This document shows positions 2,438 to 46,500 of a DNA stretch of 64,000 nucleotides, piece after piece; position 1 is the stretch's first letter, and the number at the start of each line of letters is the position of its first letter. The notes below the pieces were generated by a model that was given only the letters and a program-made list of their open reading frames with translations, was not told where the DNA came from and searched no databases. Source of the stretch: Comamonadaceae bacterium (GTDB taxonomy: Bacteria; Pseudomonadota; Gammaproteobacteria; Burkholderiales; Burkholderiaceae_C); NCBI GenBank assembly GCA_031430035.1, contig JANPAS010000083.1, positions 36,769 through 100,768 on the forward strand, given 5' to 3'. The translations under genes and the position numbers were made by a program.

Positions 2438-2455
2438 CCACTCACCCCCTCCCGT

Positions 2456-2500: not shown

Positions 2501-2532
2501 TCTCTTATTTCGAATGACCTACAGACTCGACT

Positions 2533-4736: not shown

Positions 4737-4747
4737 CGTTTTTGCTT

Positions 4748-14861: not shown

Positions 14862-14877
14862 AGCCGTGGATAAAGCA

Positions 14878-15852: not shown

Positions 15853-16946
15853 GCCAGAATCCGCAAAAAATAGCACTGATCACTGGCGTAACCGGACAGG
15901 ATGGAGCCTATCTTGCTGAACTCTTGCTCGGTAAGGGTTATATTGTTCATGGCATCAAGCGCCGGACCTCGCTGATCAACACCGACCGGATTGACCATCT
16001 GTACCAGGATCCGCACGAGCAGCATGTGCGTTTCTTCCTGCATCACGGTGACATGACTGATTCATCCAGCCTGATACGCATCATTCAGCAAACCCAGCCG
16101 GACGAAATTTACAACCTCGCAGCGCAGTCGCATGTGGCCGTCAGCTTTGAAGAGCCCGAGTACACCGCGAACTCGGATGCACTGGGCGTTTTGCGCGTGC
16201 TCGAAGCAATTCGCATCCTTGGCCTAGAGAAAAAAACACGCTTCTACCAAGCATCGACCAGTGAACTGTATGGGCTGGTGCAGGAAACGCCACAAAAAGA
16301 GACCACGCCGTTCTATCCGCGCAGCCCGTATGCGGTCGCCAAGCTTTACGGCTACTGGATCGTCGTGAATTACCGTGAAGCCTATGGCATGTATGCTTGC
16401 AACGGCATCCTCTTTAACCATGAAAGCCCAATTCGCGGCGAGACATTCGTGACCCGCAAGATCACCCGTGCGCTGGCCCGGATCAAGCTTGGACTGCAGG
16501 ACCGCCTGTACCTGGGCAACCTGGACGCCAAGCGCGACTGGGGGCACGCCAAGGATTATGTGGAAATGCAGTGGCTGATGCTGCAGCAAGAGCAGCCTGA
16601 AGACTTCGTCATTGCCACCGGCGTGCAATACAGCGTGCGCGACTTCATCAATGCGGCAGCCGAAGAAATCGGCATCAAGATCCGATGGGAAGGTTCCGGC
16701 ATCGACGAAATCGGCATCGACGTAAACGGGAAGACCATCATCTCGATCAACCCAAAATACTTCCGCCCGACCGAAGTCGAGTCCTTGCTGGGCGATGCGA
16801 GCAAGGCCAAGCAGAAACTCGGCTGGACGCCGAAAATCAGCTTCAATGAATTGGTCAGTGAAATGGTGCGGGAAGACCTGAAATCGGCGGAGCGCGACGA
16901 ACTCATCAAGCACCATGGCTACAAAACGATGGACTATAACGAATAG
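15849..16946 (+). CDS. gmd: GDP-mannose 4,6-dehydratase
   Basis: [76 protein letters not shown]. Confidence 0.95.
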
Positions 16947-16960
16947 TCCGCGCACACTAA

Positions 16961-18736: not shown

Positions 18737-18819
18737 CTTGGCAAGCGTGCTACAGACGAAGGATTGCGAAATATGCAGATCGCTACGCTGCGCGAAGTAT
18801 TGTCGCTCTTCGCCGATTC

Positions 18820-19554
18820 ATGGATATTGGAGATTGTGAATTGAAGTTACTCATTTTGGCGGGCGGATTTGGCTCCCGCCTGCAGTCTGTGCTCCCCGAC
18901 ACGCCCAAGGCATTGGCACCGATCGGCGATGTACCCTTCCTTGCGCTCCAGCTTGAAAACTGGGTTGCCCAAGGAGTCCGCTCATTCATTTTTCTTTTGC
19001 ACCATCAGGCTGACCAGATCACCAACTTCCTGAGCAGTGCCAAGAGCGGTCTGCTTAAAGAGTGCGAGGTTCAAAGCCTGATTGAACCGACGCCGATGGA
19101 CACTGGGGGCGCGGTGGCTCATGCAGTTCGCGAACTCAATCTCAACGAGGATTTTCTCGTCACCAATGCCGATACCTGGTTAGGTTCAGGCATCCAGGAA
19201 CTGATCGCTTCGGCGGCGCCGGCGATAGCGGTCATCAGACTTGATGACTCCGGCCGCTATGGCAAGGTCCAATTTGACGACCGCCAACGCGTCACGGCGT
19301 TCACGGAAAAAAATGCCCTTGGCGAGCCAGGTTGGATCAATGCCGGGCTTTGCCGCTTGGGCGTCGACCTGTTCCGGACTTGGGATGGCGCCCGGTTTTC
19401 GCTTGAAAGACAAACCTTTCCGGAGTTGGCGCAACGAGGCGAATTAGGAGCCGTCATCATCAAACCAGATTTCATCGATATTGGAATTCCCGAGGACTAT
19501 CAACGATTTTGTCGTTGGATCGAAGGAGGTCGCAAAGGCAAATTATGCAAGTAG
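18820..19554 (+). CDS. Sugar-1-phosphate nucleotidyltransferase, HddC-like (heptose-1-phosphate guanylyltransferase type)
   Basis: LLILAGGFGSRLQSVLPDTPKALAPI (G-G-x-G-x-R-L loop). The short 244-aa single-domain architecture and the neighbouring HddA-like and GmhA-like genes fit this type. The nucleotide specificity cannot be read from the sequence. Confidence 0.6.
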   Translation: MDIGDCELKLLILAGGFGSRLQSVLPDTPKALAPIGDVPFLALQLENWVAQGVRSFIFLLHHQADQITNFLSSAKSGLLKECEVQSLIEPTPMDTGGAVAHAVRELNLNEDFLVTNADTWLGSGIQELIASAAPAIAVIRLDDSGRYGKVQFDDRQRVTAFTEKNALGEPGWINAGLCRLGVDLFRTWDGARFSLERQTFPELAQRGELGAVIIKPDFIDIGIPEDYQRFCRWIEGGRKGKLCK

Positions 19555-20933
19555 AAAAATTTCTCATCGCAGAAACCGCAACGCTGCGGGAAGCTCTGGC
19601 GCGCATCGAGCTCAACCACCATGGCATCATCATGGCAATGGATACGATCGGGCGGGTCACCGGCCTGGCCACAGATGGCGACATCCGGCGCGAGCTGCTG
19701 AATGGTCGGACGCTGGATGACATGATCTCGTCGTGCATCAACGCCGCGTTCATCTTTGAAGATCCTGCGACCCCTCGTGAAGCTTTGCTCAAGAAGCTCG
19801 ACCAACGCATTCGTGTCATTCCCTTGCTTGACGCCGATCGCCGACTGGTCGGCTTGGTCAGTCGCGACCACTTGCCGGTCCGGGATGAAGAAGCCGTGTT
19901 CGCGCGGGCCCGCGCGCCGGTACGGATCAGCTTTGGCGGCGGCGGCTCCGACCTGACCCACTATTTCTCCGGCCAGGATGGCGCGGTGATCAACACCACC
20001 ATCTCGCTCTACAGCCATGCGACGCTACGCGTGCGGGATGACGAGAAAGTCTCGATCCATTCACTCGATCTTAACGAATCACTGCATGCAGACAGCCTCC
20101 AACAAGCGCTGGCGAAGGAAGATCGTTTTGGCCTGATTAAGGCTCTGCTGCGTATCGTGCAACCGGATTTTGGCTTCGACCTCTACCTGCACTCAGACTT
20201 TCCGATGAATTCTGGCCTCGGCGGTTCCGCCGTCGTATCGGCGACCGTCCTTGGGTGCTTTAACCAGTTCAGGCTTGATCAGTGGGATCCGCATGAGTTG
20301 GCCGAGCTGGCGTTCCAAGCCGAACGACTGTACCTGGGTGTGGCAGGTGGCTGGCAAGATCAATATGCCACTGTTTTTGGCGGATTCAATTTCATCGAAT
20401 TCAGAATGGAGCAGAATATTGTTCACCCGCTTCGGATCCATCCCGACATCCTGCTTGAACTCGAGGAAAGTCTGATCCTCTGCGACACCGGAACCACTCA
20501 CGATTCGGGTAATATCCACGAAGATCAGCGGCGTCAGATGGAAGACCAAGCGATTCGAACGCATGTGAACACGAACGTCGAACTGTCCTACCGGATTCGC
20601 AATCAATTGTTGCGCGGTAAGCTGCACGATTTCGGTCACTCGCTTCACGATGCCTGGCAATTCAAACGGCAGTTCAGCAGCAAAATTTCCAATAATCGCC
20701 TCGACCAGATTTACGAAGAGGCTCGCGCCCATGGCGCACTGGGCGGGAAGTTGCTAGGGGCGGGGGGCGGGGGCTTCTTCCTCTTTTATGTACCACCATT
20801 CAAGAAGCACGAATTGATTCAACATTTGGAAGCATCAAAATTGCAGGTTAGGCCCTTCCGCTTCGAGCAGGATGGCTTGCGCGCATGGACCGTGCGCGAG
20901 CGCAAAAATCATATGGAAATGGAAAGTAAATGA
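19545..20933 (+). CDS. CBS-pair domain fused to a GHMP sugar kinase (HddA-like)
   Basis: N-terminal ~115 aa: ATLREALARIELNHHGIIMAMD..GRVTGLATDGDIRR ... IRVIPLLDADRRLVGLVSRDHL (two CBS repeats). Kinase part: RISFGGGGSDLTHYF, PMNSGLGGSAVVSATV (GHMP motif 2), GWQDQYATVFGGFNFIEF and GGKLLGAGGGGFFLFY. The start is set at the ATG at 19545, which overlaps the upstream stop. Confidence 0.7.
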   Translation: MQVEKFLIAETATLREALARIELNHHGIIMAMDTIGRVTGLATDGDIRRELLNGRTLDDMISSCINAAFIFEDPATPREALLKKLDQRIRVIPLLDADRRLVGLVSRDHLPVRDEEAVFARARAPVRISFGGGGSDLTHYFSGQDGAVINTTISLYSHATLRVRDDEKVSIHSLDLNESLHADSLQQALAKEDRFGLIKALLRIVQPDFGFDLYLHSDFPMNSGLGGSAVVSATVLGCFNQFRLDQWDPHELAELAFQAERLYLGVAGGWQDQYATVFGGFNFIEFRMEQNIVHPLRIHPDILLELEESLILCDTGTTHDSGNIHEDQRRQMEDQAIRTHVNTNVELSYRIRNQLLRGKLHDFGHSLHDAWQFKRQFSSKISNNRLDQIYEEARAHGALGGKLLGAGGGGFFLFYVPPFKKHELIQHLEASKLQVRPFRFEQDGLRAWTVRERKNHMEMESK

Positions 20934-22822
20934 AGATGAGAATCGGGCAATACGAGATCGGGTCTGGCCACACCTATGTCATCGCTGAAATTGGCAACAA
21001 TCACAACGGCAGTTTTGATCGCGCGATCGAGCTGATTGATCTGGCTCTGGACGCTGGCGCCGACTCGGTCAAGTTCCAGATGCGGCATCTGGACCAGATA
21101 TACCGTCAGCGCACCTTGCGCAAGGACGGCGAGGACTTGGGCACCGAATACGTTCTCGATCTGCTGCGAAGGTTCGAACTCACCGTCGACGAGCATCACA
21201 AGCTAGCCGAGTACTGTCGCGCCAAAGATGCGACCTATCTGTGCACGCCTTGGGATGCCGTCAGTGTGGACGTGCTCGAATCGTTCGGAGTCCCTGCTTA
21301 CAAGGTGGCATCGGCTGACCTTACCAACTTGCCCTTGCTCGACCACCTCGCTCAAACAGGGAAGCCCCTGATCCTGTCCACCGGAATGAGTACCCCTCAG
21401 GAAGTGAAAGCCACGGTCGCCTTCCTTGGCAAACGCAACGCACAATTTGCACTGTTACATTGCAACAGTACCTACCCAGCGCCGCTGCACGACATTAATC
21501 TGAAGTGGATTGAGCAATTACGCAAGATCCACCCACTGATTGGATATTCGGGTCACGAGCGCGGCATCAATGTTTCGCTAGCAGCCGTGGCATTGGGTGC
21601 GACCATCATCGAGCGCCATTTCACGCTGGACCGCGGGATGGAAGGTCCGGATCACGCAGCGAGCCTGACCCATTCGGAACTCAAGCGACTGATCGAAGGC
21701 ATCAGGGAAATCGAAGAATCGCTAGGGGATGGACTAACGCGAACCCTGTCCCAGGGCGAAATGATCAACCGCGAAAACTTGGGCAAAAGCCTGGTCGCCG
21801 CGACGGCGCTGGCCAAAGGTACCAGACTCACAGCTGCGCACATCAAGGTTCGCAGCCCCGGTCAAGGACTTTCGCCGCAACGATACGAAGAACTGCTGGG
21901 CAAGACACTGCAGCACGACATGGAGGAAGAAACTTTCTTCTTCCCTTCGGACCTGACCGAAACCCGTGTAGAGCCCCGTCCATATCGGTTTGATCGGCCT
22001 TGGGGAGTGCCAGTGCGCTACCATGACTTCGGAGAATATTCCGCTAGGATCAAACCGGACGTATGGGAATTCCACCTTTCTTACTCAGATATGGATCTTG
22101 ATCTAGCCAACTTCCTGAAGGGCACTTACGAAGCAGGTTTCGTGGTGCATGCACCGGAGCTGTTCTCTGGCAGCCGCCTGATGGACCTAGCAACGCCAGA
22201 TGAAGCCTACCGCGCTGAATCGCTGCGAGAAACCCAGCGCGTGATCGATATCACCAGGAACTTGAAGCGCTTCTTCCCGAACACGAAAAGACCCCAGATC
22301 GTCGCCAACATTGGCGGCTTCACGATGGATGAATTGCTTCCGACGGAGGTGATTCCAAGCTATTACGAACGCTTTGCTCGCAGCTTGGCCGAGTTGGACC
22401 TGGACGGAGTCGAGCTGATTCCGCAAACGATGGCACCGTTTCCCTGGCATTTCGGTGGCCAGCGGTATCAGAACCTGTTCGTCAAGATCGAGGAAATCGT
22501 TCATTGGTGCCAGAAGCTCAATCTGCGCATGTGCTACGACGTATCCCACAGCTCCCTGACCTGTAATCATCTTGGCTACGATTTCTATGAGTTCAGCAGG
22601 CAGATCGCCCCGTTGACAGCACACCTGCACCTCGGCGATGCTAGGGGACTCAATGGCGAAGGCTTACAGGTTGGTGAGGGTGATATCGACTTCGACCGCC
22701 TCGGCGCGATCCTGCGCCAGGGTTGCCCTGACGCTTCATTCATCCCCGAGATTTGGCAGGGCCATAAAAACAGCGGCGAGGGATTCTGGATCGCCATGGA
22801 ACGACTGGAGGGCAAGCTGTAA
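20930..22822 (+). CDS. Fusion protein: NeuB-type (PEP-condensing) ulosonic-acid synthase with SAF domain, plus a xylose-isomerase-like TIM-barrel domain
   Basis: Residues ~1-350: YVIAEIGNNHNGSFDRAIELIDLALDAGADSVKFQ, AYKVASADLTNLPLL, PLILSTGMST, LLHCNSTYPAP, GYSGHERG, IIERHFTLDR..GPDHAASL, then a SAF-like segment (KSLVAATALAKGTRLTAAHIKVRSPGQGLSP). Residues ~370-630: FHLSY..., VVHAPE, IVANIGGF, ELIPQTM, CYDVSH, HLHLGDA, IPEIW, typical of the sugar-phosphate isomerase/epimerase (AP-endonuclease-2) fold. Confidence 0.75.
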   Translation: MKMRIGQYEIGSGHTYVIAEIGNNHNGSFDRAIELIDLALDAGADSVKFQMRHLDQIYRQRTLRKDGEDLGTEYVLDLLRRFELTVDEHHKLAEYCRAKDATYLCTPWDAVSVDVLESFGVPAYKVASADLTNLPLLDHLAQTGKPLILSTGMSTPQEVKATVAFLGKRNAQFALLHCNSTYPAPLHDINLKWIEQLRKIHPLIGYSGHERGINVSLAAVALGATIIERHFTLDRGMEGPDHAASLTHSELKRLIEGIREIEESLGDGLTRTLSQGEMINRENLGKSLVAATALAKGTRLTAAHIKVRSPGQGLSPQRYEELLGKTLQHDMEEETFFFPSDLTETRVEPRPYRFDRPWGVPVRYHDFGEYSARIKPDVWEFHLSYSDMDLDLANFLKGTYEAGFVVHAPELFSGSRLMDLATPDEAYRAESLRETQRVIDITRNLKRFFPNTKRPQIVANIGGFTMDELLPTEVIPSYYERFARSLAELDLDGVELIPQTMAPFPWHFGGQRYQNLFVKIEEIVHWCQKLNLRMCYDVSHSSLTCNHLGYDFYEFSRQIAPLTAHLHLGDARGLNGEGLQVGEGDIDFDRLGAILRQGCPDASFIPEIWQGHKNSGEGFWIAMERLEGKL

Positions 22823-23418
22823 TGTCCCTTCTTTTGACTATCCACGCCGAAGTGGCGGCGTCCATCGCCGTCAAACAGGCGCTGCTGCAGGACGATGCGC
22901 TATTGACGCAGATCGAGGCCCTAGCAAGGCAGTGCGTGGCCGCACTTCGCGCTGGCGGAAAAATTATTTTCGCTGGCAACGGCGGAAGTTTCGCCGATGC
23001 GCAGCACTTGTCCGCCGAATTCGTGTCCCGCTTCAAATTTGACCGCGCGCCGCTAGCGTCACTGACGCTGGGCACCAACAATTCCGCCATCAGCGCAATC
23101 GGCAACGACTATGGCTACGATCAGGTATTTTCACGCGAACTGGAAGCGGTCGCCAAAGCGGGCGATGTGTTCATCGGCATTAGCACCAGCGGCAACAGCC
23201 CGAATATACTTGCTGCCGTCAACAAAGCCGCGGCACTGGGCATCGCCACGACCTGCTTGACTGGCCGTACTGGCGGCAAGCTGCTCGCAATGTGCAATTG
23301 CCTGTGCATGCCGTCCGATGACACTGCGCGCATTCAGGAAGCCCATATCACTGTCGGCCACATTATTTGCGGCTTGGTCGAGCAGATTTATTTTCCAGAA
23401 GGGAAAAGTGCCCTATGA
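22822..23418 (+). CDS. SIS-domain sugar-phosphate isomerase, GmhA-like (sedoheptulose-7-phosphate isomerase type)
   Basis: GGKIIFAGNGGSFADAQHLSAEF, LGTNNSAISAIGNDYGYDQVF, DVFIGISTSGNSPNIL and ARIQEAHITVGHIIC. The 198-aa length is typical of GmhA/DiaA. Confidence 0.75.
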   Translation: MSLLLTIHAEVAASIAVKQALLQDDALLTQIEALARQCVAALRAGGKIIFAGNGGSFADAQHLSAEFVSRFKFDRAPLASLTLGTNNSAISAIGNDYGYDQVFSRELEAVAKAGDVFIGISTSGNSPNILAAVNKAAALGIATTCLTGRTGGKLLAMCNCLCMPSDDTARIQEAHITVGHIICGLVEQIYFPEGKSAL

Positions 23419-24140
23419 GTAGTATTGTCGCCCTGATCCCCGCCCGTGCCGGCTCTAAGGGGGTTCCCCATAAAAATATCAAGCTCCTGGGCGGACGCCC
23501 CCTAATTGAATGGTCGATCAAGGCCTGCCTGAAATCCCAATTGATCGACCGTGTCATTGTTTCCACGGACTCACCTGAATACGCCGAATTGGCGATAGAA
23601 CTGGGGGCAGAGGCGCCTTTCTTGCGCCCCTCGGAAATTTCAGCCGACCGTTCGACTGATTACGATTTCATTGCGCACGCACTGGACTGGCTCGCTGCCA
23701 ACGGTGGCGAACCGCAGCATGTGGTGCACATCCGTCCCACGACACCATACCGCGATCCTGCTCTGATAGACCAAGCAATCAAGGTTTTTCTCAGCGAAGC
23801 TAAGGCCACGGCGCTGCGCTCGGTGCATGAAATGTCCGAGTCCGCTTACAAGACCTTCGAAATCGCACCGGCAGGCCAGCTCATGCGCCTAGGCAGCGAC
23901 AGCACTGCTCTCGACGCTGCCAATAACGCCCGCCAGCAATTTCCCGCCACCTACCAGGCCAACGGCTACGTGGACGTGCTTTCTTCCCGTTTCATCAGAA
24001 CCAATGGCCTGATTCATGGCGACTGGGTTATGCCTTTTATCACCCCCACCGTGATTGAGGTGGACACGATCGACGATTTTGTTCATCTTGAATTCTTGCT
24101 TGATCGCAATCGCGCATTTTTCGACAAATTATTTACCTGA
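23415..24140 (+). CDS. Acylneuraminate-type cytidylyltransferase (CMP-ulosonic acid synthetase family)
   Basis: IVALIPARAGSKGVPHKNIKLLGGRPLIEWSI and VHIRPTTPYR. The start is the ATG at 23415, overlapping the upstream TGA (ATGA). Confidence 0.75.
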   Translation: MSSIVALIPARAGSKGVPHKNIKLLGGRPLIEWSIKACLKSQLIDRVIVSTDSPEYAELAIELGAEAPFLRPSEISADRSTDYDFIAHALDWLAANGGEPQHVVHIRPTTPYRDPALIDQAIKVFLSEAKATALRSVHEMSESAYKTFEIAPAGQLMRLGSDSTALDAANNARQQFPATYQANGYVDVLSSRFIRTNGLIHGDWVMPFITPTVIEVDTIDDFVHLEFLLDRNRAFFDKLFT

Positions 24141-24148
24141 GGTTATTT

Positions 24149-25537
24149 ATGGCTGGACATGAATTTTCCCGGAGCCCACAGAAGGTTCCGTTTGTAAGCA
24201 CCGAACATCGCACTATCAAGACAGCGATTCCTGCTCCCGGCACCGAGCAGATACTCGCCACTCTGGATTGCTACGAATCGCGTTCCATGCATGGCCAGTT
24301 CCCGCTGATCTGGGACCGTGCGGTGGATTCCAGCGTGTTCGATATCGCCGGCAATCGCTGGATCGATTTCACGTCGACGATTTTTGTCGCCAATGTGGGC
24401 CACTCCAACCCCAGGGTAACGGCCGCCATGCAGGCGATGATGGATGCCCCGATCTACAGTTGCTATGCCTACCCAAACATTAAACGCGCCGAATACCTGA
24501 AGAAGCTGATCGAATTCGCCGGCCCTCCGTTCGAAAAGGCTTTCCTGCTGTCAGCCGGAACCGAAGCCACCGAGGCCGCGCTGAAACTGATACGCATGCA
24601 TGGCCAGAAAATCGGCAAGCGCCGCGGCGGCATCGTCTGCATTGAGGGCAACTGGCATGGCCGCACCATGGGTGCGCAAATGATGAGCAGCAACCTGACC
24701 CAGCGCGAATGGATCGGCTTCCAAGATCAGGATATCCATCACATTCCGTTCCCGTATGCTTGGGCCTTGAACGGGACTAGTCCGGAAGCCTTCCTCGAAG
24801 CGGGCCTGGCGCGTCTAGCCGCATCGGGAATCGACATCGAAAAGGATGTGTCGGGCTTCATGCTGGAAACCTTCCAGGGCTGGGGCGCTGTGTTCTATCC
24901 GAAGGAGTTTGTCCAGGCCATCGAAAAAGTGTGCCGTAAACACAATATCTTGCTCGCCTTTGATGAAATGCAGGCGGGATTCGGCCGCACGGGCCGCCGC
25001 TTCGGGTTTGAGCATTACGAAGTCACACCGGACCTGATCGCTTGCGGCAAAGGCATGGGCGGCGGTGTTTCCCTCTCCGGCGTGCTTGGCCGTGCAGAAG
25101 TCATGGATTTGCCGGATATCGGCAACATGAGCAGTACCCACTCCGCCAATCCGCTGGTCTGCGCTGCGGGCCTGGCGGTAATCGAGGAACTGGAACAGCG
25201 CGACCTCGTCAGCGAGGCGGCTCGCAAGGGAGAGATGCTGTTCGATGCCTTGACCGCGCTGCAGCAGCGTTTCCCTGACCGCATTTCCGCATTGCTTGGC
25301 AAGGGCTTGATTGCTGCCGTACTGTTCCGTTCCCCTGTCACTGGCGCCGCCGATGGAGCCTTTACCAGCCGGGTCGCCGAGCGCTGCATGCAAAAGGGCT
25401 TGCTGGTGGTGCATACTGGGCGAGAGTCGATCAAGATCGGCCCGCCACTGACCATCGCCGATCAAGCCTTGATGGAAGGTGTCGACGTACTGGGCGAGGC
25501 GATCACTGAAATCAGTGCGGAAGTGAACGCAGAATGA
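24149..25537 (+). CDS. Class III (omega-type) PLP-dependent aminotransferase
   Basis: LLSAGTEATEAALKL, GNWHGRTMGA, LAFDEMQAGFGRTGRRFGFEHYEVTPDLIACGKGMGGG (Schiff-base Lys) and STHSANPL. Confidence 0.8.
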   Translation: MAGHEFSRSPQKVPFVSTEHRTIKTAIPAPGTEQILATLDCYESRSMHGQFPLIWDRAVDSSVFDIAGNRWIDFTSTIFVANVGHSNPRVTAAMQAMMDAPIYSCYAYPNIKRAEYLKKLIEFAGPPFEKAFLLSAGTEATEAALKLIRMHGQKIGKRRGGIVCIEGNWHGRTMGAQMMSSNLTQREWIGFQDQDIHHIPFPYAWALNGTSPEAFLEAGLARLAASGIDIEKDVSGFMLETFQGWGAVFYPKEFVQAIEKVCRKHNILLAFDEMQAGFGRTGRRFGFEHYEVTPDLIACGKGMGGGVSLSGVLGRAEVMDLPDIGNMSSTHSANPLVCAAGLAVIEELEQRDLVSEAARKGEMLFDALTALQQRFPDRISALLGKGLIAAVLFRSPVTGAADGAFTSRVAERCMQKGLLVVHTGRESIKIGPPLTIADQALMEGVDVLGEAITEISAEVNAE

Positions 25538-25971
25538 TTAGCGCGATCCGGCATACCGGCCTGGTGGTAGCCGACCTTGAACGGGCGCTGCACTTTTGGT
25601 GCGATGCGCTCGGCTTCAAGGTGGTCAGGCAGATGGAAGAGTCGGGACCCCATATCGACGCCATGATGGGCCTGCACGATGTCCGTGTGACCACCGCCAA
25701 ACTGGCGGCGCCCGACGGCAACCTGATCGAGCTATTGCAGTTTCACTCCCATCCCGACCGGCCGCAGTGGGACGGCGCACCGTATTCGACCGGGTTCACC
25801 CATATCGCCCTGACGGTAGAAGACCTTGACGCACTGGTCGGCAAACTTGCGCCCCTAGGAGTCACTTTCCCGGCACCGCCGCAATATTCACCTGACGGTG
25901 GCGTCAAGGTGATTTATGCTAGAGGCCCCGAGGGGGTCCTCCTCGAACTCGTCGAAATATTGACCAAATGA
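25534..25971 (+). CDS. VOC (glyoxalase/bleomycin-resistance/dioxygenase) family protein
   Basis: IRHTGLVVADLERALHFWCDALGFKV ... FTHIALTVEDLDALVGKL ... GPEGVLLELVE: paired beta-alpha-beta-beta-beta modules. Confidence 0.7.
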   Translation: MISAIRHTGLVVADLERALHFWCDALGFKVVRQMEESGPHIDAMMGLHDVRVTTAKLAAPDGNLIELLQFHSHPDRPQWDGAPYSTGFTHIALTVEDLDALVGKLAPLGVTFPAPPQYSPDGGVKVIYARGPEGVLLELVEILTK

Positions 25972-26948
25972 ACCAGACAACTCACCAGAAACCCCAACAG
26001 AGTACGACAGCCTGTCCTCTCTGCGCATCGGAAAAGAGCGAAATCCTTGTCCAACAGCTGCGACGTGGCTATGGCATGGCGCGCTATTGCCCTGCCTGTG
26101 ATCATGGCTACTTGGTCCAGGAACAGGCCGTGGACGCCAAGGAGTATTACGGCGAACTGTATCGTCAAGAGTATTCCCATAATGCCGAGGCGGCAGCGAC
26201 CCATGCCCGGGAAATATTCCGGGTTTACAAGAACTATCAGCAGGATCGCTTGCATCATATTCTACCCCTCTTGACTGCCAGTTCGCGGCTGTTAGAAGTT
26301 GGTGCCTCCGCAGGACAATTCCTGAGTCATATCAAGCACAAGGTTGGGGAGGTAAATGCCATCGAGCTCGACAAAGCCTGCTGCGCCTTCCTGGGCAGCG
26401 ATCTCGGCATCGATGCGGATGTGGAATTCCTGGAAAACTCGCGCTTTGCCGACCAAACCTACGACGTGGTCTGTGCTTTTCAGGTGATAGAGCATGTCGA
26501 GCAGCCTGTGGCGTTCCTCAAAACCCTCCAGCGGGTCACGAAGAAGGGCGGGACAATCTTCATCGAGGCTCCCAATCTGCGCGATCCCCTGCTATCGGTG
26601 TGGGACGTGCCGACATATCGTAAATTTTTTTATCACAGCGCCCATCTCCATTACTTTACGGAGGCCTCCTTGACCAAGGTGGCACGAGATGCCGGTTTTC
26701 GCGCCGATCAGATAGAAATCAGTTTTACTCAGGACTACAACGTCCTGAATCATCTTCACTGGATCATGAACGATGGCCCCCAATCCGATTGCCATGTGGG
26801 CCTGAGTGAAATAAACCTGCGCGGCCCCAATCAAGAAATCGCGACTTGGTTAACCGAAGAAATGAGAGACGTGAATTGCCGCTACATTGCCAAGCTGGTG
26901 GCGGCGAAATGCACCTCCAACATGCTGATGAAATTGCACTATGAATAA
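25968..26948 (+). CDS. Class I SAM-dependent methyltransferase with N-terminal Cys4 zinc-ribbon
   Basis: CPLC...CPAC, then motif I LLEVGASAGQF, and YDVVCAFQVIEHVEQP / GGTIFIEAPN. Confidence 0.7.
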   Translation: MNQTTHQKPQQSTTACPLCASEKSEILVQQLRRGYGMARYCPACDHGYLVQEQAVDAKEYYGELYRQEYSHNAEAAATHAREIFRVYKNYQQDRLHHILPLLTASSRLLEVGASAGQFLSHIKHKVGEVNAIELDKACCAFLGSDLGIDADVEFLENSRFADQTYDVVCAFQVIEHVEQPVAFLKTLQRVTKKGGTIFIEAPNLRDPLLSVWDVPTYRKFFYHSAHLHYFTEASLTKVARDAGFRADQIEISFTQDYNVLNHLHWIMNDGPQSDCHVGLSEINLRGPNQEIATWLTEEMRDVNCRYIAKLVAAKCTSNMLMKLHYE

Positions 26949-27774
26949 CAAAATCGGTTTCATGCAAGGACGCCTCTCCCCCTTGGTGGACGGGAAAATA
27001 CAGGCCTTCCCCTGGGATACTTGGCAGCAGGAGTTTCCCGCGGCTCAGAGTTTGGGGCTGGGCCTGATGGAATGGACCTTGGATCAGGATCGGCTCTATC
27101 AGAATCCCCTGCTGACGCCCCAAGGCCAGCAGGAGATTCGCCGCCTGTGTCAGGCACATAGGCTGACCATTCCTTCGCTGACTGGGGACTGCTTCATGCA
27201 GGCCCCGTTCTGGAAAGCTGAACATCCTGTAAAGGCAGGCCTCGAGGCGAATTTCATCGCCATAGCCCGCGCCTGCGCTGCGGTCGGTATTGAAATGATC
27301 GTCGTGCCACTGGTTGACAACGGCAAGCTTGAAAATGATCAACAGGAGGATGCGCTGGTCGCCTTCATGCTGGATCAGGCAGACCTGTTTCAGAAGCTCC
27401 GCCTGCGCATCATTTTCGAAAGCGATTTCGTCCCGGATAATCTCGCACGCTTCATCGACCGCCTGCCAGCCGAAACCTTTGGTGTTAACTACGACATCGG
27501 TAACAGTGCGGCATTGGGATTCAATCCCGAGGCAGAATTCGCGGCATATGCTCCCCGTATCATGAATGTGCATATCAAAGACAGGATCCGTGGCGGAACC
27601 ACAGTCGCTCTGGGCAGTGGCAATGCCGACTTCCCGGCGGTCTTTAGTCTGCTACGAGACGCTGCCTACGGCGGTTACTTCATCATGCAAACTGCCCGTG
27701 CTGAAAATGGCGACCATGCCGGTGCCCTGAGTCGGTACATCGGTCAAATCGAGACTTGGACGAAAGGGCTCTGA
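26941..27774 (+). CDS. Sugar-phosphate isomerase/epimerase (xylose-isomerase-like TIM barrel)
   Basis: IGFMQGRLSP, LMEWTLD, IVVPLVDN, IIFESDF, VNYDIGNS, VHIKDR and YFIMQTAR: spaced barrel-strand motifs of this family. Confidence 0.65.
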   Translation: MNNKIGFMQGRLSPLVDGKIQAFPWDTWQQEFPAAQSLGLGLMEWTLDQDRLYQNPLLTPQGQQEIRRLCQAHRLTIPSLTGDCFMQAPFWKAEHPVKAGLEANFIAIARACAAVGIEMIVVPLVDNGKLENDQQEDALVAFMLDQADLFQKLRLRIIFESDFVPDNLARFIDRLPAETFGVNYDIGNSAALGFNPEAEFAAYAPRIMNVHIKDRIRGGTTVALGSGNADFPAVFSLLRDAAYGGYFIMQTARAENGDHAGALSRYIGQIETWTKGL

Positions 27775-27775
27775 T

Positions 27776-28537
27776 ATGCAACTTCAGTTGCAAGGGAAAT
27801 CTGTTCTGGTCACTGGCTCATCCAAGGGGATCGGCCGAGCCATCGCCGAGGCGTTTCTGGCTGAGGGTGCCGAAGTCGCATTCAATGGACGCAATGCCGA
27901 GGACCTTAAGCGTGTCATCGCAGACCAGATCGAGGGCAAAGCTATAGCCGTCGATGGCGATGTAAGCAAACCGCACGGTGCTCGTGAAGTAGTCAACGGT
28001 GTGCTCTCGGCATTTGGGAAGCTTGACGTACTGGTTTGCAATGTCGGCAGCGGTCGGTCAGTGCCTCCGGGCCTAGAGACTCATCAGGAGTGGTTGAAGA
28101 TTTTTGAGCAAAATCTGTGGAGCGCAACTAATATGGTCGAAGCCGCAAAGCATGCACTCATCAAAACCAAAGGTACGATAGTTTGTATTTCTTCTATTTG
28201 CGGTCAAGAGGTCATACTGGGGGCGCCCGTCACCTACTCATCTGCAAAAGCGGCCCTCAACGCGTATGTTCGCGGCATTGCTCGGCCGCTGGGGCAAGAC
28301 GGCGTGAGAATCAATGCCATCGCCCCCGGCAATGTCCTGTTCGAGAACTCTGTCTGGCAAAGAAAGATCAACGAGGATGCCGCTGCTGTCAAGCAGATGC
28401 TGGCGCGCGATGTGGCCCTGTCAAAGCTTGGTACGCCCCAGGATGTCGCCAATCTTGCGCTATGGCTGGCGTCTCCTGCGGCATCGTTTTGCACCGGCAG
28501 CATATTTGTCACGGACGGCGGGCAAGTCCGAAGTTAA
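27776..28537 (+). CDS. Classical SDR oxidoreductase (FabG-like)
   Basis: KSVLVTGSSKGIGRAIA (TGxxxGxG), NVGS, YSSAKAALNAY (YxxxK) and PGNV. Confidence 0.8.
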   Translation: MQLQLQGKSVLVTGSSKGIGRAIAEAFLAEGAEVAFNGRNAEDLKRVIADQIEGKAIAVDGDVSKPHGAREVVNGVLSAFGKLDVLVCNVGSGRSVPPGLETHQEWLKIFEQNLWSATNMVEAAKHALIKTKGTIVCISSICGQEVILGAPVTYSSAKAALNAYVRGIARPLGQDGVRINAIAPGNVLFENSVWQRKINEDAAAVKQMLARDVALSKLGTPQDVANLALWLASPAASFCTGSIFVTDGGQVRS

Positions 28538-28556
28538 GAAACAGATAAGGTGAAAG

Positions 28557-29390
28557 ATGGCTTTTGAGAAATTCGATCTGACCGGCAAGACCGCCCTAAT
28601 TACCGGCGCGGCCGGCTTGCTGGGCATGGAGCACGCGGCGGCGCTGTTAGAGAGCGGCGCGACGGTGGTGCTGACTGACATGAGCGCCACAGCGCTTGAC
28701 GCTGCAGCGCAACGCTTGAGTGAACGCCATGACCGCGCGCGGATCCTGACCACGGTGATGGATGTGACCGATCCAGCGGCCATAGGTGCTGTAGCGAAAA
28801 TGCTGTCCGGACGAGGTTTGCGCGTGGACATTCTGGTCAACAACGCAGCCATCGACCCCAAGGTTAAGGGCGATCATGGAGTTGTGGAGACGTCGCGCCT
28901 TGAACACTTCCCCTTGGATCAATGGAATCTGCAGGTGGCCGTCGGTCTGACCGGTGCATTCCTGTGCAGCCAAGTCTTTGGCAGCGCGATGTCCCAAGAC
29001 GGAAAAGGGGGGGTCATCCTGAACATCGCTTCTGATCTCTCGGTCTTCGCCCCCGACCAGCGGCTCTACCGCAAGGAGAGCTTGCCCGATGAGCTGCAAC
29101 CCGTGAAGCCGGTGACCTATTCGGTGATTAAGGCCGGACTGATCGGATTGACCCGTTATCTGGCCACCTACTGGGCTGACAAGGGCGTGCGATGCAACGC
29201 TCTCTCACCCGGTGGTGTCTACAACGGCCAGGGAGACGAATTCGTCCAGCGGTTGACCTCGCTGATTCCGCTTGGGCGGATGGCCGACAAGGAGGAGTAT
29301 CGGGCTGCGGTGCAGTTTCTCTGCTCGGATGCGTCTGCGTACATGAATGGCCAGAACATAGTCATGGATGGCGGTCGCAGTGTCCTGTAA
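28557..29390 (+). CDS. SDR oxidoreductase
   Basis: KTALITGAAGLLGMEHA, NNAA, YSVIKAGLIGLTRY (YxxxK) and PGGV. Confidence 0.8.
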   Translation: MAFEKFDLTGKTALITGAAGLLGMEHAAALLESGATVVLTDMSATALDAAAQRLSERHDRARILTTVMDVTDPAAIGAVAKMLSGRGLRVDILVNNAAIDPKVKGDHGVVETSRLEHFPLDQWNLQVAVGLTGAFLCSQVFGSAMSQDGKGGVILNIASDLSVFAPDQRLYRKESLPDELQPVKPVTYSVIKAGLIGLTRYLATYWADKGVRCNALSPGGVYNGQGDEFVQRLTSLIPLGRMADKEEYRAAVQFLCSDASAYMNGQNIVMDGGRSVL

Positions 29391-29441
29391 AGAAATGATG
29401 TGGACTGGCCCTGCTCCTAGACGCAAGGCCAGACCCGCACT

Positions 29442-34461: not shown

Positions 34462-34465
34462 TTTT

Positions 34466-46491: not shown

Positions 46492-46500
46492 GACACTTCT

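What the first reader, a model, noticed from the sequence alone, without database searches (positions are those of the whole stretch)
20930..22822. A single 630-aa ORF fuses a NeuB/SAF synthase to a sugar-phosphate isomerase/epimerase-type TIM barrel
Seen in sequence: one uninterrupted frame carries a complete NeuB core (IAEIGNNHNG ... HCNSTYPAP ... GYSGHERG ... ERHFTLDR), a SAF-like segment, and then ~260 residues with the strand motifs of the xylose-isomerase-like fold (VVHAPE, IGGF, CYDVSH, HLHLGD, PEIW).

The canonical NeuB, LegI and PseI enzymes as I know them are ~340-350 aa and lack this extension.

A fused isomerase/epimerase suggests either substrate channelling, where the barrel makes the aldose (or aldose-phosphate) that the synthase consumes, or immediate post-condensation epimerisation.

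A second, free-standing barrel of the same fold lies 4 kb downstream at 26941-27774.
Basis: partly seen in the sequence, partly recalled or inferred. Interest (0 to 1): 0.7.

Follow-up and report, generated by a model that had tools for sequence, protein, structure and literature searches.

The report
NeuB synthase fused to endonuclease-IV-like barrel
The 630-residue fusion of a sialic-acid-type synthase to a metal-binding TIM barrel is real and occurs in hundreds of bacterial species, was already noticed in Leptospira in 2012, and its barrel looks more like a relic of an endonuclease-IV-type phosphoesterase than a sugar epimerase, so it may be the pathway's missing phosphatase, though nobody has tested this.

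Summary
ORF 20930-22822 (+) is one uninterrupted 630-aa protein with NeuB (aa 35-268), SAF (287-342) and a xylose-isomerase-like TIM barrel (about 358-626). It is not a local accident or a frameshift. The same architecture occurs in at least 579 species-level genomes. A second class carries an extra N-terminal CBS domain (about 750 aa).

The NeuB catalytic core is intact, but the protein scores below the NeuB and PseI equivalog cut-offs.

The barrel's chemistry is unresolved. Foldseek puts ketose 3-epimerases first (TM about 0.66). Profile searches put MJ1311 and endonuclease IV first. The invariant residues match endonuclease IV ligands (H407, D537, H540, H567, E607). The epimerases' first catalytic Glu is Gln (Q499). 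Positions 460 and 499 covary perfectly (H+E or N/S/T+Q).

A CBS-GHMP kinase lies directly upstream in 63 of 63 well-flanked loci, and most loci lack a HAD phosphatase.

A 2012 paper described this fusion in Leptospira interrogans and inferred a phosphatase.

My best reading, at about 40%, is kinase, then synthase, then barrel phosphatase, then CMP-transferase. The isomerase/epimerase reading remains possible at about 25%. The finding is a new member of a known but uncharacterised kind.

The parts
20930..22822 (+). Fusion gene, 630 aa: NeuB - SAF - xylose-isomerase-like TIM barrel
   Evidence: ORF, translation, Pfam, AF2 model with pLDDT 88.2. The 120 listed close homologues are all 628-646 aa, 118 with all three domains on record.
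21032..21733 (+). NeuB (PEP-condensing synthase) domain, aa 35-268
   Evidence: PF03102, E 7.6e-85. The catalytic and PEP/metal residues of NmNeuB are kept: E20, K48, Q50, K125, S150, Y182, S207, H209, E228, H230, D241. Foldseek top hits are NeuB 1xuu and PseI 8h2c. Scores are below the equivalog cut-offs of TIGR03569 (344.9 against 399.65) and TIGR03586 (251.6 against 340.25).
21788..21955 (+). SAF / antifreeze-like domain, aa 287-342
   Evidence: PF08666, E 3.3e-10. The position of NmNeuB R314 is S309, with R308 adjacent.
21965..22819 (+). C-terminal metal-binding TIM barrel, aa 346-630 (strands from aa 358)
   Evidence: PF01261 at aa 381-617. Barrel-only AF2 model has pLDDT 81 and pTM 0.84. 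Foldseek: UlaE/DTE TM ~0.66, with endonuclease IV and MbnB lower. Profile against PDB: MJ1311 1.2e-10, endonuclease IV 3.3e-7. Invariant residues: D366, E380, H382, D387, H407, D537, H540, H567, D570, E577, E607, H612.
19545..20933 (+). CBS-pair + GHMP kinase (HddA-like), the obligate upstream partner. The mechanical ORF starts at a TTG at 19509.
   Evidence: Pfam CBS, GHMP_kinases_N and GHMP_kinases_C. Best NCBIfam match is HddA, 249.6 bits against a cut-off of 600. Gene call in L001. Present in 63 of 63 well-flanked loci, with a gap of 111 nt or less in 56. ATGA overlap with the fusion gene.
18841..19554 (+). Sugar-1-phosphate nucleotidyltransferase (HddC-like)
   Evidence: PF00483. Best NCBIfam match is HddC, 125.6 bits against a cut-off of 300. 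Present in 41 of 63 loci.
22822..23418 (+). SIS-domain sugar-phosphate isomerase (GmhA-like)
   Evidence: SIS_2. GmhA models score 178 against 276 and 171 against 209. TAATG overlap with the fusion gene. Present in 30 of 63 loci, nearly always directly downstream.
23415..24140 (+). CMP-ulosonate synthetase-type cytidylyltransferase (PseF/KdsB-like)
   Evidence: PF02348. PseF model scores 137.6 against 205.7. Gene call in L001. Present in 50 of 63 loci. It is the only pathway partner next to the fusion in the 750-aa class.
24149..25537 (+). Class-III aminotransferase (accessory)
   Evidence: PF00202, E 3e-86. Present in 16 of 63 loci.
25534..25971 (+). VOC/glyoxalase-fold protein (accessory)
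   Evidence: PF00903. Present in 18 of 63 loci.
25968..26948 (+). SAM-dependent methyltransferase (accessory, variable)
   Evidence: Methyltransf_23/11. At 40% identity or more in only 4 of 63 loci.
26941..27774 (+). Free-standing xylose-isomerase-like barrel, UlaE-type
   Evidence: PF01261. Weak UlaE and 3lmz matches with a 'DIGN' motif. Present in 56 of 63 loci. Only 24% identical to the fused barrel over 95 aa.
27776..28537 (+). Classical short-chain dehydrogenase 1
   Evidence: adh_short_C2. Present in 58 of 63 loci.
28557..29390 (+). Classical short-chain dehydrogenase 2 (gluconate-5-dehydrogenase/KduD-like)
   Evidence: adh_short_C2. Present in 60 of 63 loci, all at 40% identity or more.

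Best explanation
The gene encodes a bifunctional enzyme of an uncharacterised CMP-ulosonic-acid pathway.

Shown: the N-terminal NeuB+SAF half has every residue needed to condense phosphoenolpyruvate with an aldose. The C-terminal half is a metal-binding (beta/alpha)8 barrel whose invariant ligands derive from an endonuclease-IV/MJ1311-type multinuclear centre. The fusion is ancient and widespread.

Inferred: the pathway runs through phosphorylated intermediates, as in animals, Bacteroides and Prymnesium. The adjacent, possibly translationally coupled CBS-GHMP kinase (and, where present, the GmhA-like SIS isomerase) supplies an aldose phosphate. The NeuB half condenses that aldose phosphate with PEP to give an ulosonate phosphate. 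The barrel hydrolyses the terminal phosphate, playing the role that HAD phosphatases (NANP, KdsC, Kdn-9-P phosphatase) play elsewhere. The neighbouring CTP_transf_3 enzyme then makes the CMP-sugar. The two classical SDRs, the UlaE-type barrel and, in some hosts, the class-III aminotransferase, VOC protein and methyltransferase remodel the free sugar or ulosonate.

In the ~750-aa class no kinase gene lies next to the fusion, and the CBS regulatory pair sits on the synthase itself. That is expected if CBS marks the first committed enzyme and the substrate there is an ordinary sugar phosphate such as mannose 6-phosphate (giving Kdn).
For: 1) The architecture and catalytic residues of the NeuB half are intact.

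2) With a family profile, the barrel's nearest solved relatives by sequence are MJ1311 (1.2e-10) and endonuclease IV (3.3e-7 to 5e-5), ahead of UlaE (7e-3).

3) The ligand map to E. coli Nfo is H69->H407, D179->D537, H182->H540, H216->H567 and E261->E607, all invariant in 68-69 of 69 representatives. As I recall, the E-D-H-E epimerases have no counterpart of H69 or H182; UlaE has N at the latter.

4) The positions of Nfo H109 and E145 (ligands of one zinc site) covary perfectly: H+E in 14, N/S/T+Q in 55, none mixed. This validates the metal-site mapping.

5) The epimerase catalytic Glu is Gln in this protein.

6) The CBS-GHMP kinase is present in 63 of 63 loci and directly upstream, which is more constant than the NTP-transferase (41), SIS (30) or HAD (23). 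A kinase implies phosphorylated intermediates and hence a need for a phosphatase. 40 of 63 loci, and the window itself (tblastn; Pfam of its main ORFs), show no GmhB-like HAD.

7) In Paraglaciecola and Colwellia a CMP-transferase plus the fusion are the only ulosonate genes. There is no HAD, NeuC or kinase, and a polysialyltransferase-like gene lies next door. So the fusion must cover everything between a common metabolite and the free ulosonate.

8) Precedent: Kdn synthesis is Man-6-P + PEP -> Kdn-9-P -> (HAD phosphatase) -> Kdn -> CMP-Kdn (PMC6200933).

9) Ricaldi et al. 2012 independently drew the same inference for the L. interrogans fusion (PMC3438082).

10) The CBS pair of the window's kinase aligns end to end with the N-terminal CBS pair of the 750-aa class (24% identity, E 1e-6).
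Against: No biochemical data exist for any member. As far as I know (from memory, not tested), no sugar-phosphate monoesterase has been characterised in this fold.

Only 5 of the 9 endonuclease IV ligands are strictly kept. The window's clade has lost one whole metal site plus the H231 equivalent.

Foldseek ranks ketose 3-epimerases and rhamnose isomerase above endonuclease IV (TM 0.66 against 0.57).

The kinase's best family match is HddA, which as I recall phosphorylates the anomeric C1 of heptose 7-phosphate. A C1 phosphate would block condensation. With SIS, a GmhB-like HAD and an HddC-like transferase, the kinase could belong to a separate NDP-heptose branch.

Some loci do have a HAD phosphatase (23 of 63).

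I could not retrieve the published L. interrogans protein to confirm that it is in the same family.
Confidence: 0.4

Rival explanations
1. The barrel is a sugar or sugar-phosphate isomerase/epimerase that prepares the aldose consumed by the NeuB half, for example by 3-epimerising a ketose phosphate ahead of the SIS isomerase or by isomerising ketose to aldose. Alternatively it epimerises the condensation product. Fusion would channel an unstable or scarce intermediate.
For: The Pfam family PF01261 is dominated by sugar isomerases and epimerases. Foldseek's best hits are UlaE and the D-tagatose/D-psicose 3-epimerases (E 2e-10, TM 0.66) and L-rhamnose isomerase. Three of the four epimerase ligands are kept (D537, H567, E607). 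14 of 69 family representatives keep the first Glu as well. JGI annotation uses this label.
Against: Q499 replaces the first catalytic and metal-binding Glu in the window protein and in 55 of 69 representatives. No NCBIfam epimerase or isomerase model hits the barrel. Endonuclease-IV-type histidines, which as I recall epimerases lack, are invariant. The cassette already has a SIS isomerase and a canonical UlaE-type barrel. The phosphatase step implied by the universal kinase would stay unfilled in 40 of 63 loci and in the two-gene modules. C3 of an ulosonate is a methylene, so ketose-3-epimerase chemistry cannot act on the product (chemistry, inference).
Confidence: 0.25
2. The barrel is a phosphodiesterase or hydrolase acting upstream of the synthase. 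It would release the free aldose from an NDP-sugar or a sugar 1-phosphate. The NDP-sugar could be the NDP-heptose-type product of the SIS/kinase/HAD/NTP-transferase genes, or GDP-mannose in the 750-aa class. This would replace the NeuC/LegG/PseG step of classical nonulosonic acid pathways.
For: The barrel's sequence and ligands resemble endonuclease IV. No NeuC/PseG-type gene is in the conserved cassette. The fusion is embedded between diverged GmhA-, HddA- and HddC-like genes, with a GmhB-like HAD in 23 of 63 loci. ManC or Gmd/Fcl genes lie beside the two-gene modules.
Against: Making an NDP-sugar only to hydrolyse it makes sense if it is modified at the NDP level. The cassette's dehydrogenases are classical SDRs, not the extended SDRs that I know to act on NDP-sugars. 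The NTP-transferase is missing in 22 of 63 loci, whereas the kinase never is. Njordibacter keeps SIS, the fusion and the CMP-transferase without the kinase or NTP-transferase.
Confidence: 0.12
3. The barrel carries out some other metal-dependent chemistry on the ulosonate or its precursor. Candidates are dehydration (as in IolE or AsbF) or oxidation by a multinuclear iron centre (as in MbnB/DUF692). Otherwise it is mainly a structural or oligomerisation module.
For: MbnB (7tcw, rank 27) and DUF692 (3bww, rank 38) appear in the Foldseek list. The family has invariant residues with no counterpart in endonuclease IV or the epimerases (E380, H382, D387, D570, H612), so the chemistry may be new.
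Against: There is no sequence-level hit to the dehydratase or DUF692 families. I know MNIO enzymes to act on peptides with partner proteins that are absent here. A dozen invariant His/Asp/Glu residues argue against a purely structural role.
Confidence: 0.13

Closest known systems
Leptospira interrogans NulO synthase with a C-terminal 'endonuclease-like phosphatase' domain (YP_002104 / NP_711794; Ricaldi et al. 2012, PMC3438082)
   Same: [quoted passage not shown] Its neighbours are an extra aminotransferase and a CMP-NulO synthetase, as here. Other Leptospira species carry proteins 67-72% identical to the window protein.
   Different: The phosphatase role in that paper is an inference only. 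That paper tied it to Neu5Ac. Here R314 of NmNeuB is replaced and the context suggests a different sugar.
Bacterial NeuB / LegI (SpsE) / PseI nonulosonic acid synthases (PDB 1xuu, 1vli, 8h2c)
   Same: The NeuB TIM barrel plus SAF domain, the metal-binding histidines and the PEP-binding residues are conserved. Identity is ~30-34%, with Foldseek E 1e-30 to 1e-27.
   Different: Scores are below the equivalog cut-offs for NeuB and PseI. E134 is D130 and R314 is S309. There is an extra 285-residue catalytic-looking barrel. No NeuC/PseG-type hydrolase or DegT aminotransferase is in the conserved cassette.
Phosphorylated-intermediate ulosonate pathways: Kdn (Bacteroides BT1713-1715, Prymnesium), animal Neu5Ac (kinase-NANS-NANP-CMAS), Kdo (KdsD-KdsA-KdsC-KdsB)
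   Same: The gene logic matches: (isomerase or kinase) -> PEP-condensing synthase -> phosphatase -> CMP-transferase (PMC6200933; PMC3438082). The cassette has an SIS isomerase and/or a kinase, the synthase and the CMP-transferase.
   Different: The phosphatase in those pathways is a separate HAD enzyme. Here the candidate is a fused barrel of a different fold. The kinase is a GHMP enzyme with a CBS pair. Neither substrate nor product is known.
Endonuclease IV (Nfo) and the uncharacterised MJ1311 (PDB 1qtw, 5zhz, 3wqo)
   Same: These are the best profile-sequence matches. The ligands H69, D179, H182, H216 and E261 are conserved. A minority of the family (14 of 69) also keeps H109 and E145.
   Different: The D229/H231 'DRH' loop is absent. 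H109 and E145 are N and Q in the window protein. There is no DNA context. Additional invariant residues are present on strand 1 (E380, H382, D387).
UlaE / D-tagatose and D-psicose 3-epimerases (PDB 3cqj, 4q7i, 3vni)
   Same: These are the best structural matches of the barrel model (TM ~0.64-0.67), and three of the four metal ligands are shared.
   Different: Identity is 14-16%. The first catalytic Glu is Gln. The barrel has 'DVSH' where UlaE has 'DIGN'. No equivalog or subfamily model hits it.
GDP-D-glycero-alpha-D-manno-heptose pathway (GmhA, HddA, GmhB, HddC)
   Same: The genes flanking the fusion have these four as their best family matches. The syntenic HAD passes the GmhB subfamily cut-off.
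   Different: SIS, kinase and NTP-transferase all score well below the equivalog cut-offs. The kinase carries a CBS pair. Only the kinase is universal. The window has no GmhB.

Membership tests
NeuB family of PEP-condensing ulosonate synthases (PF03102) | Significant match to the NeuB domain model over its full length | tested here: met
   PF03102, E 7.6e-85, profile positions 1-239 of 241.
NeuB family of PEP-condensing ulosonate synthases (PF03102) | Metal-binding His pair and PEP/aldose-binding residues of NmNeuB (E25, K53, Q55, K129, S154, Y186, S213, H215, E234, H236, D247; residue roles recalled from the NmNeuB structure papers) | tested here: met
   All align to identical residues: E20, K48, Q50, K125, S150, Y182, S207, H209, E228, H230, D241. 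They are invariant across 46 fusion proteins.
NeuB family of PEP-condensing ulosonate synthases (PF03102) | C-terminal SAF / antifreeze-like domain | tested here: met
   PF08666 at aa 287-342. It aligns structurally with NeuB and PseI over ~345 columns.
N-acetylneuraminate synthase proper (TIGR03569 equivalog) | Score at or above the curated equivalog cut-off | tested here: not met
   344.9 bits against a cut-off of 399.65. R314 of NmNeuB is Ser here.
Pseudaminic acid synthase PseI (TIGR03586 equivalog) | Score at or above the curated equivalog cut-off | tested here: not met
   251.6 bits against a cut-off of 340.25.
Xylose-isomerase-like TIM barrel superfamily (PF01261) | Model match above the gathering score, and a (beta/alpha)8 fold | tested here: met
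   70.7 bits against 31.1. The AF2 barrel model has pTM 0.84. 204 Foldseek matches at E<=1e-3, and the 50 listed are all members of this fold.
Ketose 3-epimerase / UlaE-type sugar(-phosphate) epimerases | Glu-Asp-His-Glu metal tetrad in which both Glu act as catalytic bases (from memory of the DTE/UlaE literature) | tested here: not met
   The first Glu position is Q499. D537, H567 and E607 are present.
Ketose 3-epimerase / UlaE-type sugar(-phosphate) epimerases | Match to curated epimerase family models | tested here: not met
   NCBIfam returns only the NeuB and PseI models for the fusion. The free barrel at 26941 does get weak UlaE-type hits.
Endonuclease IV (Nfo) family | Nine ligands of the trinuclear zinc site (H69, H109, E145, D179, H182, H216, D229, H231, E261; numbering recalled, and checked against the sequence) | tested here: not met
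   Five are kept (H407, D537, H540, H567, E607). H109 is N460 and E145 is Q499. H231 is absent. D229 is ambiguous (E577 or Q580).
Endonuclease IV (Nfo) family | Significant profile similarity | tested here: met
   The family profile hits 5zhz at 3.3e-7, 8edd at 5.2e-5 and 1xp3 at 1.9e-4.
NeuB-synthase/'endonuclease-like phosphatase' fusions as described for L. interrogans (PMC3438082) | N-terminal NulO synthase domain plus a C-terminal domain homologous to phosphodiester-cleaving endonucleases | tested here: met
   The architecture and the endonuclease IV similarity match the paper's description.
NeuB-synthase/'endonuclease-like phosphatase' fusions as described for L. interrogans (PMC3438082) | Sequence relatedness to NP_711794 / YP_002104 | not tested
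   That sequence was not obtainable with these tools. L. interrogans was not among the named top hits of a Leptospira query.
NeuB-synthase/'endonuclease-like phosphatase' fusions as described for L. interrogans (PMC3438082) | Phosphatase activity of the C-terminal domain | not testable with these tools
   The activity is inferred in the paper and here. No assay is reported.
HAD-type ulosonate-phosphate phosphatases (NANP, KdsC, Kdn-9-P phosphatase) | HAD fold and motifs | tested here: not met
   There is no HAD domain in the fusion, and tblastn with the GmhB-like HAD of L003 finds none in the window, nor does Pfam on its main ORFs. The barrel can only be a functional analogue.

The most novel reading that the evidence does not exclude
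The cassette built around this fusion makes a CMP-activated ulosonic acid that has not been described. Because GmhA/HddA/GmhB/HddC-like genes flank the fusion, it could be a ten-carbon 3-deoxy-ulosonate formed from D-glycero-D-manno-heptose 7-phosphate and PEP, then remodelled as the free acid by classical SDRs, a UlaE-type barrel and, in some hosts, a class-III aminotransferase. The fused barrel would be the first sugar-phosphate phosphatase derived from the endonuclease IV fold.
Probability: 0.15. Interest if true: 0.8.

Novelty: new member of a known kind. Interest (0 to 1): 0.5.

Why it matters
Nonulosonic and related ulosonic acids decorate bacterial surfaces and shape recognition by phages, grazers and hosts. 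This fusion marks a pathway present in at least 579 bacterial species, including Bradyrhizobium, Leptospira, SAR86, SAR116, Chlorobium, picocyanobacteria and many freshwater Betaproteobacteria. Its sugar product and barrel chemistry have never been determined.

If the barrel is a phosphatase, bacteria widely use the 'animal-like' phosphorylated route to sialic-acid-type sugars, with a non-HAD phosphatase. That was proposed for Leptospira in 2012 and never tested.

If the barrel is an isomerase or something else, the family hides new chemistry in a well-studied fold.

Either way, current annotations ('N-acetylneuraminate synthase', 'sugar phosphate isomerase/epimerase', 'TIM barrel protein') are probably misleading. 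Cultured hosts such as Paraglaciecola mesophila and Colwellia, with their two-gene modules, make the question directly testable.

Tried and rejected
1) Frameshift or assembly artefact. Rejected: all 120 listed close homologues are 628-646 aa, 118 of them with the same three Pfam domains on record, and the architecture recurs in hundreds of genomes.

2) The fusion as a local event. Rejected, on the same evidence plus a second, CBS-bearing class.

3) The downstream free barrel as a recent paralogue of the fused barrel. Rejected: 24% identity over 95 aa and different motifs.

4) A link to bradyrhizose, the C10 sugar of photosynthetic Bradyrhizobium. The only gene cluster proposed for it is a different, dTDP-glucose-dehydratase-containing 11-gene operon, and the authors state that the genes are unknown (PMC4743980). 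My Bradyrhizobium hits are B. japonicum, B. yuanmingense, B. liaoningense, B. jicamae and other isolates, none of them a strain named in that paper. No support was found, so I dropped this lead.

5) The Epimerase_2 gene at 59452-60576 as the pathway's NeuC. Unlikely: it sits with Polysacc_synt_2 and RmlD-like genes, a trio I recognise as FnlABC/CapEFG-like, 37 kb away. Pfam marks no such gene inside the cassette in any host I looked at (the one Epimerase_2 in L004 lies 7 kb upstream in a separate Polysacc_synt_2 trio).

6) Literature searches for the fusion by domain names found nothing specific. The MJ1311 search gave one irrelevant mention. The 2021 NulO-synthase phylogeny paper does not mention the fusion.

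7) The search for related loci with the barrel-only alignment failed for lack of a conserved stretch. The look-up of P0367 found no record.

8) hmmalign of Nfo to the family HMM aligned only the C-terminal half. The N-terminal ligand mapping therefore rests on the hmmsearch alignments to Mycobacterium and Bacillus-type endonuclease IV.

9) Foldseek with the full-length model returned only NeuB, DAHP-synthase and Kdo8P-synthase hits, so a barrel-only model was needed.

Full report
OBSERVATION

The translation has no internal stop and contains every motif quoted.

Pfam finds three domains:
- NeuB, aa 35-268, E 7.6e-85.
- SAF, aa 287-342, E 3.3e-10.
- AP_endonuc_2, the xylose-isomerase-like TIM barrel, aa 381-617, E 2e-19.

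An AlphaFold2 model built on 46 homologues is confident (mean pLDDT 88.2, pTM 0.69). It shows two (beta/alpha)8 barrels separated by the small SAF domain, with a well-ordered linker.

The start codon overlaps the stop of the upstream gene (ATGA). The stop overlaps the start of the downstream gene (TAATG). The free-standing barrel at 26941-27774 is also real.

IS THE FUSION AN ACCIDENT?

No. The 120 best matches among 5.8 billion proteins are all 628-646 aa and at least 77% identical. Of these, 118 have the same three Pfam domains on record and two lack a SAF hit. The named ones come from Cyanobium, a Rhodobacterales isolate, Candidatus Njordibacter and unclassified Proteobacteria.

I searched 1.84 billion cluster representatives with the barrel alone. 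This gave 852 relatives, 210 of them at E<=1e-30. The full-length hits fall into two size classes:
- About 620-640 aa: NeuB-SAF-barrel.
- About 740-770 aa: CBS-NeuB-SAF-barrel.
Only a few are free-standing proteins of about 270-290 aa.

Hosts among the 80 loci kept, which all carry the fusion, include Curvibacter, Rhodoferax, Methyloversatilis, many Bradyrhizobium, several Leptospira, Chlorobium, Sediminibacterium, SAR86, SAR116 and Desulfuromonas.

The 750-aa class sits in cultured marine bacteria: Paraglaciecola mesophila, Glaciecola, Colwellia, Pseudoalteromonas, Marinomonas and Amylibacter.

Databases already label these proteins 'N-acetylneuraminate synthase family protein' or 'sialic acid synthase SpsE/sugar phosphate isomerase/epimerase'.

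THE SYNTHASE HALF

Aligned to the N. meningitidis NeuB crystal sequence, the residues I know as metal, PEP and aldose ligands are all kept. NmNeuB E25, K53, Q55, K129, S154, Y186, S213, H215, E234, H236 and D247 correspond to E20, K48, Q50, K125, S150, Y182, S207, H209, E228, H230 and D241. These residues are invariant across both fusion classes.

Two substrate-side positions differ: E134 is D130 and R314 is S309. The protein scores below the curated equivalog cut-offs for NeuB (344.9 against 399.65) and PseI (251.6 against 340.25).

So this is a working PEP-condensing synthase of the NeuB family. It cannot be filed as an N-acetylneuraminate or pseudaminate synthase.

THE BARREL

Fold-level assignment is secure. 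The barrel-only model has pLDDT 81 and pTM 0.84, and Foldseek returns 204 matches at E<=1e-3, the 50 listed all in this fold. Subfamily assignment is not secure, because two kinds of evidence disagree.

Structure comparison favours the sugar enzymes:
- UlaE and the D-tagatose/D-psicose 3-epimerases come first (E 2e-10, TM 0.64-0.67, 14-16% identity).
- L-rhamnose isomerase follows.
- MbnB is at rank 27, endonuclease IV at rank 34 (TM 0.57) and a DUF692 protein at rank 38.

Sequence comparison favours the phosphoesterases. A profile of 28 diverse barrels hits the uncharacterised MJ1311 (1.2e-10), then four endonuclease IV sequences (3.3e-7 to 1.9e-4). UlaE reaches only 7e-3.

The residues decide which resemblance is deeper. 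Across 69 representatives the invariant or near-invariant side chains are R363, D366, E380, H382, D387, H407, D537, H540, H567, D570, E577, E607 and H612.

Combined with the printed alignments to other endonuclease IV proteins, the ligand map is:

| Nfo ligand | Window protein |
|---|---|
| H69 | H407 |
| H109 | N460 |
| E145 | Q499 |
| D179 | D537 |
| H182 | H540 |
| H216 | H567 |
| D229 | E577 or Q580 (loop alignment ambiguous) |
| H231 | absent |
| E261 | E607 |

Two of the conserved histidines (H407, H540) are endonuclease-IV-type ligands that, as I recall, the Glu-Asp-His-Glu epimerases lack; UlaE has Asn at the H540 position. Conversely, the first Glu of that tetrad, which I recall as one of the two catalytic bases of ketose 3-epimerases, is Gln here.

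Positions 460 and 499 covary perfectly. Fourteen representatives have His+Glu and fifty-five have Asn/Ser/Thr+Gln. None is mixed. In Nfo these two residues are ligands of the same zinc. Their joint loss is what one expects if the mapping is right and one metal site was dropped as a unit in the clade that includes the window protein.

The free barrel downstream looks like an ordinary UlaE-type enzyme. It aligns with UlaE's first-Glu, Asp and His ligand positions and has its 'DIGN' motif, although the position of UlaE's last Glu is Gln. It is only marginally similar to the fused barrel.

My reading is that the fused barrel descends from an endonuclease-IV/MJ1311-like multinuclear metalloenzyme and has since been remodelled. 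It fails the membership tests for both endonuclease IV and the ketose 3-epimerases.

CONTEXT

The fusion lies inside a conserved cassette. In window order:
1. NTP-transferase, HddC-like (125.6 bits against a cut-off of 300).
2. CBS-GHMP kinase, HddA-like (249.6 against 600).
3. The fusion.
4. SIS isomerase, GmhA-like (178 against 276).
5. CTP_transf_3 cytidylyltransferase, PseF/KdsB-like.
6. Class-III aminotransferase.
7. VOC protein.
8. Methyltransferase.
9. UlaE-type barrel.
10. Two classical SDRs.

The same order recurs in Cyanobium and Rhodobacterales. In Njordibacter it recurs without the first two genes.

I quantified this by tblastn in the 63 species loci that have at least 5 kb upstream and 7 kb downstream:

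| Partner | Loci (of 63) |
|---|---|
| CBS-GHMP kinase | 63 (gap to the fusion of 111 nt or less in 56) |
| SDR2 | 60 |
| SDR1 | 58 |
| UlaE-type barrel | 56 |
| Cytidylyltransferase | 50 |
| NTP-transferase | 41 |
| SIS isomerase | 30 |
| GmhB-like HAD phosphatase | 23 |
| Class-III aminotransferase | 16 |

The HAD passes the GmhB subfamily cut-off (195 against 149.6). It sits just upstream of the NTP-transferase in 16 loci at 42–63% identity to the L003 HAD, plus L003's duplicate fetch L009 and weaker same-position hits. tblastn finds none in the window, and Pfam on its main ORFs shows no HAD domain.

The stripped-down Bradyrhizobium version is kinase, fusion, cytidylyltransferase, SDR, barrel, SDR, SDR.

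The 750-aa class is the most informative. In Paraglaciecola and Colwellia the only ulosonate genes are a 229-aa cytidylyltransferase and the CBS-bearing fusion. In Paraglaciecola a polysialyltransferase-like gene, a flippase and glycosyltransferases follow. Within 10 kb there is no kinase, SIS, NeuC-type epimerase, sugar aminotransferase or HAD. The fusion must therefore convert a common metabolite all the way to a free ulosonate.

The CBS pair on the window's kinase aligns along its whole length with the N-terminal CBS pair of that class (24% identity, E 1e-6). The regulatory module therefore sits on the kinase when a kinase is present and on the synthase when it is not.

LITERATURE

Domain-name searches found nothing. 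A 2021 phylogeny of NulO synthases does not mention the fusion.

Ricaldi et al. 2012 did. [quoted passage not shown] They inferred, without an assay, that it dephosphorylates a phosphorylated nine-carbon product in an animal-like pathway (PMC3438082). Its neighbours are an extra aminotransferase and a CMP-NulO synthetase.

I could not fetch that sequence. L. interrogans was not among the named top hits of a Leptospira query, although L. levettii, L. ognonensis, L. yasudae and L. perolatii were. The match is therefore by description.

The phosphorylated route itself is established for Kdn: Man-6-P + PEP gives Kdn-9-P, then a separate HAD phosphatase acts, then CMP-Kdn synthetase. A Prymnesium synthase accepts only Man-6-P (PMC6200933).

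MECHANISM I COMMIT TO (about 40%)

The sequence is kinase (and/or SIS isomerase), then aldose phosphate, then NeuB-half condensation with PEP to an ulosonate phosphate, then barrel-catalysed dephosphorylation, then CMP activation. The SDRs, the UlaE-type barrel and the accessory aminotransferase, VOC protein and methyltransferase remodel the free sugar or acid.

- Shown: the architecture, the intact synthase residues, the endonuclease-IV-type ligand set and its covariation, the universal adjacent kinase, the lack of a HAD in most loci, and the two-gene modules.
- Inferred: the substrate is phosphorylated, the barrel is the phosphatase, and CBS marks the first committed step.

The weak points are these:
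- I know of no characterised sugar phosphatase in this fold.
- The window's clade has lost one metal site.
- Foldseek prefers epimerases.
- The kinase's closest family, HddA, is as I recall an anomeric kinase. Together with the GmhA-, GmhB- and HddC-like genes it could form a separate NDP-heptose branch.

Rivals:
- An NDP-sugar or sugar-1-phosphate hydrolase replacing NeuC/PseG (about 12%).
- Other metal chemistry, or a structural role (about 13%).

VERDICT

The protein is a new member of a kind that is widely annotated and was noted in print in 2012. No member has been characterised.

Interest is moderate (0.5). The fusion itself is not a surprise to anyone who has browsed NeuB domain architectures. 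The size and breadth of the family, the endonuclease-IV-derived active site with its covarying metal site, and the unknown sugar product (possibly larger than nine carbons, given the heptose-type flanking genes) make it a well-posed target that can be tested directly.

Noticed in passing
window 12466-60576 (+ strand): About 48 kb of uninterrupted same-strand glycan-biosynthesis genes. They include GalE (12466), ManC (13470), a GDP-fucose synthase-like gene (14788), Gmd (15849), a PglK/MsbA-like ABC exporter (16961), the cassette, then a polysaccharide deacetylase, GT4, a methyltransferase, a pyruvyl transferase, several glycosyltransferases (GT2, GT4, GT10 fucosyltransferase-like at 49205) and further sugar-nucleotide pathways. 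Housekeeping genes (URO-D, cytochrome c assembly, HPr kinase) lie at 1-8 kb.
   Followed up: partly
window 38777-44301: A module for a C-methylated, N-formylated amino-deoxy sugar. It comprises an NDP-sugar dehydratase/epimerase (38777), a dTDP-4-dehydrorhamnose 3,5-epimerase (39850), a TylC3-type C-methyltransferase with a zinc-binding domain (40404), a DegT aminotransferase (41667), a sugar N-formyltransferase (42785) and a CmcI-type O-methyltransferase (43522).
   Followed up: no
window 44387-49171: A split transketolase-like pair (N-terminal half at 46501-47325, C-terminal half at 47322-48236) sits between an NTP-transferase, a second DegT-family enzyme and an NDP-sugar epimerase. From memory, this arrangement recalls two-carbon branch addition in branched-chain sugars.
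   Followed up: no
window 52437-56365: Two large ORFs (483 aa and 825 aa) have no Pfam hit. They lie in the stretch with the strongest AT skew of the window (-0.19 to -0.27). They may be membrane proteins such as a polymerase or ligase, but I did not examine them.
   Followed up: no
window 57582-60576: An RmlD-like reductase, a Polysacc_synt_2 (+2C) dehydratase and a UDP-GlcNAc 2-epimerase (Epimerase_2) lie together. I recognise this trio as FnlABC/CapEFG-like. It holds the only NeuC-family gene in the window. It is 37 kb from the fusion, and Pfam marks no such gene inside the cassette in other hosts (L004 has one in a similar trio 7 kb upstream).
   Followed up: partly
L008 (Lacisediminimonas MAG) against window 13470-30392: Identity across the cassette is mosaic. 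SIS, the CMP-transferase, the aminotransferase, VOC and Gmd are 94-96% identical to the window. The fusion and the kinase are 84%, the NTP-transferase 70%, the second barrel 68%, and the methyltransferase is unrelated (28%). This suggests recombination within the cassette and hints that the window's host is a freshwater betaproteobacterium.
   Followed up: no
P0398 (740 aa), and window 19545-20933 against P0125 aa 6-123: The CBS pair moves between proteins. It is on the GHMP kinase in the window. It is on the synthase in the ~750-aa marine class. It is also on a 740-aa protein that is 75% identical to the Leptospira 630-aa type.
   Followed up: partly
L069 (Bradyrhizobium sp. PUT101) 289-6177: In Bradyrhizobium the kinase-fusion core is preceded by branched-chain-amino-acid-type ABC transporter genes, a 424-aa protein with no Pfam hit, and an AMP-binding (adenylate-forming) enzyme. 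This may hint at acylation of the sugar in that lineage.
   Followed up: no
window 33310-35569 and 36786-37748: Three ORFs of 320-383 aa inside the glycan island have no Pfam match. The GC content dips to 0.478 at 32-34 kb.
   Followed up: no
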